Source: Escherichia coli O127:H6 str. E2348/69 | Lineage (GTDB): Bacteria > Pseudomonadota > Gammaproteobacteria > Enterobacterales > Enterobacteriaceae | Direction: 5' to 3' (one strand) | NCBI RefSeq assembly: GCF_000026545.1 | Contig: NC_011601.1 | DNA length: 64,000 bases | Shown here: positions 6,001 through 9,000 of the stretch, piece after piece | Numbering within the stretch: position 1 is the stretch's first letter | Layout: every line of letters begins with the position of its first letter | Made by a program: the position numbers

Positions 6001-9000
6001 GAATATTTTGTAAGTAATGGCAAACTGTCAGCTCTTCGATATCCAGCCGTCGCGTATCCAGTGAACAAAACGCAAAATCGTCTGCCAAATTTTTATCCAG
6101 CAGCAGGATACTCTCGTTATGCAACGATATTTTTTGCTGTTCATGATGAATATCGAATGAACGACGAACGAGGATCACCGAGCAGACATGAGTCATGACT
6201 ATTCCTTATATTTCATTACTGCGATTATTTCAATGTCAGTATACTAATGAAATGACGCCAGACTGTTTCTGTGTGCAAAAACTGCCATATTTGGTAGGAC
6301 CAAATTTTATCCACAAAGTAGTTTTGCATAACAGTTAATTGATAATAAGTAAATGCAACACGATTATATTTTCACACAGCGTATAGCTTATGTTTATAAA
6401 AAAATGGCTGATCTTATTTCCAGTAAAAGTTATATTTAACTTACTGAGAGCACAAAGTTTCCCGTGCCAACAGGGAGTGTTATAACGGTTTATTAGTCTG
6501 GAGACGGCAGACTATCCTCTTCCCGGTCCCCTATGCCGGGTTTTTTTTATGTCTGAGTAAAACTCTATAATCTTATTCCTTCCGCAGAACGGTCAGTGCC
6601 GTAAAAATTCCCTTGCGCAGCCATACTTGCCGCCGGGCCACAGTTCGGTAATTCCTGCGCCGATCGCTCCTGATACTCTGTGGGCGTCATCCCATAATAA
6701 TTTCGAAAAACGTAAATGAAATACGACACGCTGTGATATCCACAGGATACTGCAACTCGCTTAATTGAAACCCCATATATAACAATAAGTTGTAAAGCAC
6801 GCTGCATCCTACACTCAGTAAGCAACTGTGAATATGACGTACCTTCTTCGCGCAATTTTTTCTTTAACAGGCTTGGACTCATCAACAATTCGCTAGCGAT
6901 TCGGGCTAATGTCCACTCATGGGCGATATTATTATTGATGACCGTACAAACTCGTGTTCGCATATTCGGTTGCAACACGTTCAGAAGTAACGGTATAAAT
7001 TGCGTATCCTCAAGAAAAACAGATAACAACGCAAAGATTAATGCCCTTTTACGTAGCATTTCTGCATAGCGAAGATTCTTATTCTGCGATAGTTGCGCAA
7101 CTTCCTGAAAAACAGGAATATCTCTGGTACAGTGATGAACGAGTAATGAAGGAACTTTTTTATGTGCATGAAGTTTTAATGCCTCCTCCTTGAGCATCGG
7201 GAGAAATAATGAAAGCGTGTCTCTTGAAACTAATACGAAATTCTCAACACACTTATCCACTTGAATTTGGCTTGCATCCGCAAAAACCAGATCACCGCCA
7301 TTAAAATAGCGATATTCACCATTAACCATGGTGAGAATATATTTATGTCTTGCGTACGCAATTAGACAATTACCATGTAGTGGTTGCATAGTTGACTTAA
7401 TATTACATAAACATATTACTGTTTATTAATGTAGCACGCCGCCCTCTTAAGTCAAATTGATTGATAAATAAATTTAAACGAAGCGGGAAAACAGGATGAT
7501 AATGAGCGATGATACTCGGGCTGGATGACTGGATTTATTATATAAAAAGGGGACTTAAGAACGAAGAGGAATTAATAGTAAGCAAATAATTCATCATCGT
7601 AATATTAAGCAGTATCGCTATGCTCCATAACATTCATATAACATATATCTTATCAACACGATGAATAGACAGGTAATATATTATTGCAATTAATAAGTAG
7701 CCGAATACCCACCTGTTTTTAAAGGTTGGGCATTCGGTTTTTACAACGTGATGTTATCAGGTGTGTTTAAAGCTGTTCTGCTGGGCAATACCCTGCAGTT
7801 TCGGGTGGTCGCTGAGATATTTCAGGGAGGCTTTGTAGTCTTCCAGCAACAGTTCAGCAAAGTCCATTTCGAAGCCGCGACGACACATAATGCGCATCAC
7901 CACGATGTCGGTGGCTTCACCGCCGAGAGTGAAAGCCGGAACCTGCCAGCCGCGCAGACGCAGACGTTCAGAGAGGTCGTACAGGGTGTATCCCGGATCT
8001 TCACCATCTTTCAGTTTGAAGCAAACCGCCGGGATGCCTTCGTCCGGGCGACCGGTACAGATGAACTCATACGGCCCCAGTTTGGCGATTTCATCCGCCA
8101 GATAAGCGGCAACCTGGTAGGAAGCGTTCTGTACTTTGGTATAGCCTTCACGACCGAGGCGCAGGAATTCATAGTACTGTGCAATCACCTGACCCGCCGG
8201 GCGGGAGAAGTTGATGGCGAAAGTACCAATCTGACCGCCGAGGTAGTCAACGTTGAACACCAGTTCCTGCGGCAGCGCTTCTTCATCACGCCAGATAACC
8301 CAGCCGCAGCCCAGCGGAGCCAGACCGAATTTATGGCCTGAAGCACTGATCGATTTCACACGCGGCAGGCGGAAGTCCCAGACGATATCCGGGGCGACGA
8401 ACGGTGCCAGGAAGCCACCGCTGGCGGCGTCGATGTGCATGTCGATGTCGATACCGGTGTCGGCCTGGAATTTATCCAGCGCATCGTGCAGCGGCTGCGG
8501 GAACTCATAGTTACCGGTGTAGGTCACGCCGAAAGTCGGCACCACGCCGATGGTATTTTCGTCGCAGGCTTCAATCATGCGTTTCGGGTCCATAAACAAC
8601 TGACCGGGGCGCATAGGGATCTCACGCAACTCCACATCCCAGTAGCGGGCGAATTTATGCCAGCAGATTTGTACCGGACCGCACACCAGGTTTGGTTTAT
8701 CCGTTGGTTTGCCTGCGGCTTCCATACGCTTGCGCCAACGCCATTTCATCGCCATCCCGCCGAGCATACAGGCCTCGGAAGAACCAATGGTGTTGGTGCC
8801 AACGGCCTGACCATTTTTCGGTGCAGGCGCATGCCACAGATCGGCAACCATGTTTACGCAACGCAGGTCGATTGCAGCGGATTGCGGATATTCTTCTTTG
8901 TCGATCCAGTTTTTATTGATCGACAAATCCATCAATTTATGGACGTTTTCGTCGTCCCAGGTCTGGCAGAAAGTGGCCAGGTTCTGACGAGCGTTGCCAT

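What the first reader, a model, noticed from the sequence alone, without database searches (positions are those of the whole stretch)
6443..6547. GadY sRNA between gadX and gadW
A roughly 105-nt segment on the + strand ends in a strong intrinsic terminator (CCCGGTCCCCTATGCCGGG plus T8) between two minus-strand genes, consistent with the GadY sRNA that acts on the gadX-gadW mRNA. It is a regulatory RNA that ORF-based annotation would miss.
Basis: partly seen in the sequence, partly recalled or inferred. Interest (0 to 1): 0.2.

Follow-up and report, generated by a model that had tools for sequence, protein, structure and literature searches.

The report
GadY small RNA, already known

Summary
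The observation and the interpretation both hold. Window 6443-6548 (+) is GadY. It matches Rfam RF00122 over the full model at 150 bits (threshold 45, E = 8e-32). It is base-for-base identical to the K-12 MG1655 gene gadY (b4452). It sits between gadX (6565-7389, -) and gadW (5468-6196, -), has a -10 hexamer 7 nt upstream of its start, and ends in a 6-bp GC-rich hairpin followed by T8. The same hairpin read on the minus strand has no U-tract after it, so gadX transcripts can read through into gadW and across GadY's complement. One modest added result: GadY is a sharp conservation island. It is at least 99% identical in 5412 of 5426 complete E. coli genomes and 97-100% identical in other Escherichia lineages whose flanks are only 63-93% identical. 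I found no compensatory base changes. Verdict: already known, low interest.

The parts
6443..6548 (+). GadY small RNA (primary form about 105 nt; the K-12 RefSeq feature maps to 6443-6548)
   Evidence: Rfam RF00122 at 150 bits over 6440-6553. 100% identical to K-12 gadY b4452.
6431..6436 (+). Candidate -10 hexamer TATATT of the gadY promoter, at -12 to -7 relative to 6443
   Evidence: Read from the sequence. It matches TATAAT at 5 of 6 positions. The consensus scan missed this promoter because the -35 is weak. The block 6380-6442 is conserved at 0.92-0.98.
6404..6411 (+). ATGGCTGA, which fits the AppY motif ATGSCWGM reported to overlap the gadY -35. The weak -35 candidate CTGATC lies at 6408-6413 (17-bp spacer).
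   Evidence: Regex match. The motif and AppY binding to the gadY promoter are from PMC10057817.
6443..6489 (+). Hairpin 1 (compound 5' stem-loop), containing GGA at 6474-6476
   Evidence: The Rfam consensus structure and the MFE fold agree. The only two substitutions seen in other species (6473, 6489) fall here and break pairs.
6494..6514 (+). Hairpin 2 (7-bp stem, 7-nt loop), with GGA at 6500-6502 straddling the stem and the loop
   Evidence: Invariant in all 8 aligned Escherichia sequences.
6522..6548 (+). Intrinsic terminator: hairpin 6522-6540 plus T8 at 6541-6548. It probably also serves as the Hfq-binding 3' end (inferred).
   Evidence: Terminator scan, Rfam structure. Conservation falls off immediately downstream of the T-run.
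6443..6548 (-). Target site: the part of the gadX-gadW mRNA (gadX 3' UTR / intergenic spacer) that is fully complementary to GadY. It begins 17 nt after the gadX stop codon (spacer 6549-6564).
   Evidence: Complementarity follows from the overlap. No minus-strand terminator in 6150-6650. On the minus strand the hairpin is followed by AAGAGGAUAG, not a U-tract. GadY-dependent cleavage is from the literature.
6565..7389 (-). gadX, AraC-family acid-resistance activator (upstream gene of the target mRNA)
   Evidence: NCBIfam NF007432 GadX at 587.5 bits against a cut-off of 500. RefSeq annotation.
5468..6196 (-). gadW, AraC-family acid-resistance regulator (downstream gene of the target mRNA)
   Evidence: RefSeq annotation of the identical E2348/69 sequence. 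AraC-family hits in NCBIfam, none above an equivalog cut-off.

Best explanation
Window 6443-6548 (+) encodes GadY, an Hfq-binding small RNA of the E. coli acid fitness island. It is transcribed from its own promoter (-10 TATATT at 6431-6436; weak -35 overlapping an AppY site) and ends at the hairpin-plus-T8 terminator. Because it lies on the strand opposite the gadX-gadW transcript, it is perfectly complementary to the stretch just downstream of the gadX stop codon. The GadY-mRNA duplex directs endonucleolytic cleavage of the bicistronic gadX-gadW mRNA, by RNase III and at least one other activity. The products accumulate to higher levels, which raises GadX and GadW and therefore the glutamate-dependent acid resistance genes (gadA, gadBC, gadE). 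What is shown here: identity, position, strand, anatomy, conservation, and the lack of a minus-strand terminator. What is taken from published K-12 experiments on an identical sequence: expression as 105/90/59-nt species at low pH, Hfq binding, stabilisation of gadX mRNA, RNase III involvement, AppY activation and CsrA titration. What is inferred: that the same holds in this EPEC strain.
For: Rfam GadY full-length hit at 150 bits, E = 8e-32. 221/221 identity to K-12 around gadY b4452. Flanked by gadX and gadW on the minus strand. A single + strand intrinsic terminator. The MFE fold reproduces the three Rfam hairpins. The minus-strand reading of the hairpin has no U-tract, which allows gadX-to-gadW read-through. 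GadY is >=99% identical in 5412/5426 complete E. coli genomes, while the 401-bp stretch with flanks is mostly 95-99% identical. In other Escherichia lineages GadY is 97-100% identical while the flanks are 63-93% identical, Fisher p from 0.006 to 1e-14, and the conserved block runs from about 6380 (promoter) to 6548 (T-tract). Literature: 105/90/59-nt forms (PMC5686845); antisense location, 3'-UTR pairing and RNase III processing (PMC3937726; PMC3919570); AppY binding at the gadY promoter and CsrA titration (PMC10057817); Hfq binding (PMC11300174).
Against: I have no expression data for this strain. The fold is no more stable than shuffled sequence (z = -0.64). There is no covariation support: the two substitutions seen each break a stem-1 pair. 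The consensus promoter scan did not report the gadY promoter. The two primary papers (Opdyke 2004 and 2011) are not in the held library, so mechanistic details come from secondary citations. Perfect cis complementarity does not itself explain the extreme conservation of primary sequence.
Confidence: 0.96

Rival explanations
1. GadY is real, but the function selection mainly acts on is in trans: Hfq-dependent pairing with unlinked mRNAs and/or titration of CsrA. On this view the cis effect on gadX-gadW is secondary.
For: A cis-antisense pair stays complementary whatever mutates, yet the primary sequence is nearly invariant while the flanks diverge 25-37%. GGA motifs lie at 6474 and 6500, the latter at a hairpin loop. 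CsrA titration and biofilm effects are reported (PMC10057817 citing Parker 2017), as is sdiA targeting (PMC11300174).
Against: The cis effect on gadX-gadW is the experimentally best-supported role. Conservation could equally reflect constraints on the structure and processing of both strands. No trans target was tested here.
Confidence: 0.25
2. The hairpin plus T-run is merely a terminator or structural element of the gadX transcript (a bidirectional terminator), with no independent + strand RNA.
For: The hairpin lies 25 nt after the gadX stop codon, where a gadX terminator would be expected, and A8 precedes it on the minus strand.
Against: On the minus strand the hairpin is followed by AAGAGGAUAG with no U-tract, and the scan reports no minus-strand terminator. 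The full 114-position GadY model matches, not just the hairpin. Conservation extends upstream over a + strand promoter. Northern blots in K-12 with an identical sequence show GadY species.
Confidence: 0.02
3. The conserved block is a minus-strand element only, such as an RNase or protein-binding site in the gadX-gadW spacer, and + strand transcription is incidental.
For: Sequence conservation alone does not say which strand is under selection.
Against: The conserved block is bounded by + strand signals: the promoter at about 6400-6436 and the T-tract ending at 6548. Literature cited in held papers shows that GadY overexpression raises GadX and GadA.
Confidence: 0.03
4. The segment encodes a small protein rather than a non-coding RNA.
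For: Two short ORFs overlap the area: 6353-6439 (28 aa) and 6390-6485 (31 aa).
Against: Both ORFs start upstream of the GadY 5' end at 6443. Frames 0 and 1 are closed by an early stop, frame 2 opens with one and then contains no ATG, and none of the three contains an ATG-initiated ORF. The conservation pattern is not codon-like; the block is near-invariant throughout.
Confidence: 0.01

Closest known systems
GadY (Rfam RF00122; E. coli K-12 gadY, b4452; formerly IS183)
   Same: Identical sequence (221/221 including flanks), the same position and strand between gadX and gadW, the same three-hairpin structure and terminator.
   Different: No sequence difference. Only the host differs: EPEC O127:H6 E2348/69, where the RefSeq annotation omits it.
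OOP RNA of phage lambda acting on cII-O mRNA
   Same: A cis-encoded antisense RNA whose duplex with the 3' part of an mRNA is cleaved by RNase III, with residual cleavage in rnc mutants. PMC3919570 makes this comparison.
   Different: OOP destabilises cII mRNA, a negative effect. GadY-directed cleavage increases the levels of the gadX and gadW products.
Type I antitoxin antisense RNAs (Sok, IstR-1, OrzO, RdlD)
   Same: Short antisense RNAs whose pairing with a target mRNA triggers RNase III cleavage. Two rdlD copies lie in this same window.
   Different: These repress a toxin mRNA. GadY is a positive regulator of transcription-factor genes and also binds Hfq.

Membership tests
GadY (RF00122) | Scores above the Rfam gathering threshold over the full covariance model | tested here: met
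   150 bits against 45, model positions 1-114 of 114, E = 8.3e-32.
GadY (RF00122) | Encoded between gadX and gadW on the opposite strand, overlapping the gadX 3' UTR | tested here: met
   gadW at 5468-6196 (-), GadY at 6443-6548 (+), gadX at 6565-7389 (-). The K-12 layout is the same.
GadY (RF00122) | Sequence identity with the experimentally characterised K-12 gene | tested here: met
   Window 6380-6600 is 100% identical to K-12 3664801-3665021.
GadY (RF00122) | Three stem-loops, the last being a Rho-independent terminator | tested here: met
   The MFE fold matches the Rfam consensus structure. The terminator scan finds the site.
GadY (RF00122) | Structure supported by compensatory base changes | tested here: inconclusive
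   There are only two substitutions among 8 Escherichia sequences. Both break stem-1 pairs (6473 G>T, 6489 T>C) and neither is compensated. The variation is too small to judge.
GadY (RF00122) | Own promoter, RpoS-dependent, induced in stationary phase and at low pH | not testable with these tools
   A -10 TATATT at the correct distance and the AppY motif are present, and the promoter block is conserved. Sigma-factor dependence needs an experiment.
GadY (RF00122) | Expressed as 105-, 90- and 59-nt RNAs that bind Hfq | not testable with these tools
   Reported for K-12 (PMC5686845; PMC11300174). Not measured in E2348/69 here.
GadY (RF00122) | The target mRNA extends across the complementary region (gadX-gadW co-transcript), allowing GadY-directed cleavage | tested here: met
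   The sequence shows no minus-strand terminator between gadX and gadW in 6150-6650. The cleavage itself is known only from the literature.

The most novel reading that the evidence does not exclude
GadY's near-invariant primary sequence is not needed for cis-antisense pairing. It is 0-3 differences in 106 nt across Escherichia lineages whose flanking gadX coding sequence differs by up to 37%. It may therefore reflect selection on trans-acting roles such as Hfq-dependent targets or CsrA titration through the GGA-bearing hairpins. In EPEC these roles could link acid stress to virulence gene control beyond the GadX route.
Probability: 0.25. Interest if true: 0.3.

Novelty: already known. Interest (0 to 1): 0.06.

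Why it matters
It matters little as a discovery, because GadY has been characterised since 2004. The practical points are two. First, standard RefSeq (PGAP) annotation of this EPEC genome, and of every sampled E. coli genome other than K-12, leaves the gene unannotated. Second, GadY is a sharply bounded conservation island within a fast-evolving gadX-gadW region. That pattern suggests constraints beyond cis complementarity.

Tried and rejected
1. I tried to read the primary papers, Opdyke 2004 (PMC522195, PMID 15466020) and Opdyke 2011 (PMC3030618, PMID 21147125). They are not held, so the mechanism is cited from held papers that summarise them.

2. I looked for covariation support for the structure. 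Variation was too small, and the two substitutions found break pairs rather than compensate.

3. Thermodynamic stability against shuffled sequence is not significant (z = -0.64), so it was not used as evidence.

4. The consensus promoter scan did not report the gadY promoter, and its two hits (6183, 6339) are at the level expected by chance. I assigned the -10 by position relative to the K-12 5' end instead.

5. The small-ORF reading is rejected.

6. The reading of the hairpin as a gadX terminator is rejected.

7. The genome contigs pattern scan found only 5 loci, all Escherichia. It required an exact match at 21 positions, so absence from other genera is only suggestive.

8. I searched for GadY studies in EPEC and found no direct study.

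Full report
**Observation**

The + strand from 6443 reads ACTGAGAGCACAAAG... and ends in the hairpin CCCGGTCCCCTATGCCGGG (6522-6540) followed by T8 (6541-6548). A consensus scan of 6150-6650 reports this as the only terminator-like site. It is on the + strand, and 0.2 sites are expected from shuffles. The segment lies between two minus-strand ORFs, 5468-6196 (242 aa) and 6565-7389 (274 aa). The only correction is that the T-run ends at 6548, not 6547.

**Identity**

A search of the whole window against Rfam 15 at gathering thresholds gives RF00122 (GadY) at 6440-6553 (+). The score is 150 bits against a threshold of 45, E = 8.3e-32, covering all 114 model positions with every residue matching the consensus.

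Window 6380-6600 is 100% identical to K-12 MG1655 3664801-3665021. The K-12 RefSeq record annotates ncRNA gadY (b4452, "small regulatory RNA GadY") at 3664864-3664969 (+), between gadW and gadX. That maps to window 6443-6548.

The 274-aa ORF is GadX (NCBIfam NF007432, 587.5 bits against a cut-off of 500). The 242-aa ORF is annotated gadW in the identical E2348/69 sequence. Further neighbours are mdtF (1992-5105, +), gadA (7757-9157, -) and ccp.

The window itself comes from E. coli O127:H6 E2348/69, an EPEC strain. 24.5 kb is 100% identical only to genomes of that lineage.

**Anatomy**

- **Fold.** The MFE fold of 6443-6547 reproduces the three Rfam hairpins: 6443-6489, 6494-6514, and the terminator at 6522-6540. 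It is not more stable than shuffled sequence (z = -0.64), so stability is not evidence either way.
- **Promoter.** TATATT lies at 6431-6436, which is -12 to -7 relative to 6443. A weak -35 candidate, CTGATC, lies at 6408-6413. ATGGCTGA at 6404-6411 fits the AppY motif ATGSCWGM, which PMC10057817 reports overlapping the gadY -35 and contributing to AppY activation.
- **Coding potential.** No ATG-initiated ORF lies within the RNA. The two short ORFs nearby both start upstream of 6443.
- **Minus strand.** Here the hairpin is preceded by A8 and followed by AAGAGGAUAG. It is therefore not an intrinsic terminator for gadX, and no minus-strand terminator is found between gadX and gadW. This fits the published gadX-gadW co-transcript, which must cross GadY's complement. 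That complement starts 17 nt after the gadX stop codon.

**Conservation**

- The 106-nt GadY is >=99% identical in 5412 of 5426 complete E. coli genomes.
- The 401-bp stretch including its flanks is 95-99% identical in 4203 records and 90-95% identical in 20.
- A pattern scan of 100,044 species-representative genomes found five loci, all Escherichia: E. coli, E. whittamii, and Escherichia sp. E1V33 and MOD1-EC7003. All five are recovered by Rfam as GadY at 123-150 bits.
- In an alignment of GadY with flanks, GadY differs at 0-3 of 106 positions. By comparison, the gadW-GadY spacer is 71-95% identical, the 16-nt GadY-gadX spacer 25-100%, and the 3' end of the gadX coding sequence 63-93%. Fisher p values run from 0.006 down to 1e-14.
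- The conserved block runs from about 6380 to 6548, that is from the + strand promoter to the + strand T-tract.
- The only two substitutions (6473 G>T and 6489 T>C, in L005 and L006) each disrupt a stem-1 pair without compensation. Hairpin 2, the linker and the terminator are invariant. The constraint is therefore on primary sequence, and there is no covariation evidence for the structure.

**Mechanism**

The mechanism comes from the literature, on a sequence identical to this one.

- It is seen as 105-, 90- and 59-nt species at low pH in K-12 (PMC5686845).
- It pairs with the gadX 3' UTR and positively regulates gadX and gadW by affecting processing of the gadXW transcript by RNase III (PMC3937726). 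Residual cleavage in rnc mutants points to another double-strand nuclease (PMC3919570).
- It is a direct AppY target and has been reported to titrate CsrA (PMC10057817). GGA motifs occur at 6474 and 6500.
- The primary papers (Opdyke 2004 and 2011) are not in the held library.
- From the reported sizes and a shared 3' end, the 90- and 59-nt forms would start near 6458 and 6489. Both positions fall in A/U-rich unpaired stretches of the fold. This is my inference, not a result.

**Rivals**

- A gadX terminator is excluded by the strand asymmetry of the U-tract.
- A minus-strand-only element is unlikely, because the conserved block is bounded by + strand signals.
- A small protein is excluded.
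- The one open question is which function drives the extreme sequence conservation. Cis complementarity is preserved automatically under mutation, so it cannot be the cause. Trans-acting roles, or recognition by proteins and RNases, are plausible but were not tested here.

**Novelty**

This is already known. The only points of note are that PGAP annotation omits the gene in this strain and in all 12 sampled genomes, and that GadY is a sharply bounded conservation island in a rapidly diverging regulatory region.

Noticed in passing
window 589-660 (+): Rfam ES205 sRNA hit (106.5 bits) just downstream of the gadE 3' end and upstream of mdtE. It is also present in the E. coli E69 and E. whittamii loci (L004, L006). 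From memory, this may correspond to the gadE 3'-UTR-derived sRNA GadF; I did not check.
   Followed up: partly
window 41895-42018 (-) and ORF 41427-41936 (-): An Rfam STnc490 (Hfq-binding RNA) hit at 142 bits lies at the 5' end of an ORF that looks like an IS200-type transposase (identified by eye and from memory, not searched). If that is right, the sRNA match is the 5' UTR of an IS200-like tnpA, that is, an insertion sequence next to the ldr/rdl locus.
   Followed up: partly
window 42109-42330 and 42592-42813: Two tandem type I toxin-antitoxin copies. rdlD antisense RNAs lie at 42265-42330 and 42748-42813 (+). Opposite them are 35-aa Ldr peptides (MTLAELGMAFWHDLA[A/V]PVIAGILASMIVNWLNKRK) at 42109-42216 and 42592-42699 (-). 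From memory, K-12 has a single ldrD/rdlD here.
   Followed up: partly
window 52908-52984 (-), 52734-52814 (+), 50456-50498 (+): tRNA-Pro(CGG), with an adjacent naRNA4 (REP-derived nucleoid-associated RNA) hit and an ES036 hit further upstream.
   Followed up: no
window 6565-6873 (-), especially 6620-6659: The 3' end of the gadX coding sequence is unusually divergent among Escherichia (63-93% identity, with indels). Mean column identity is only 0.57-0.60 at 6620-6659, immediately beside the near-invariant GadY.
   Followed up: partly
window 6443-6548; RefSeq records: PGAP annotations of E2348/69 and of all 12 sampled complete E. coli genomes carry no feature over GadY; only the curated K-12 record does. 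Also, 14 of 5426 complete genomes have no GadY match, and a few have two places.
   Followed up: partly
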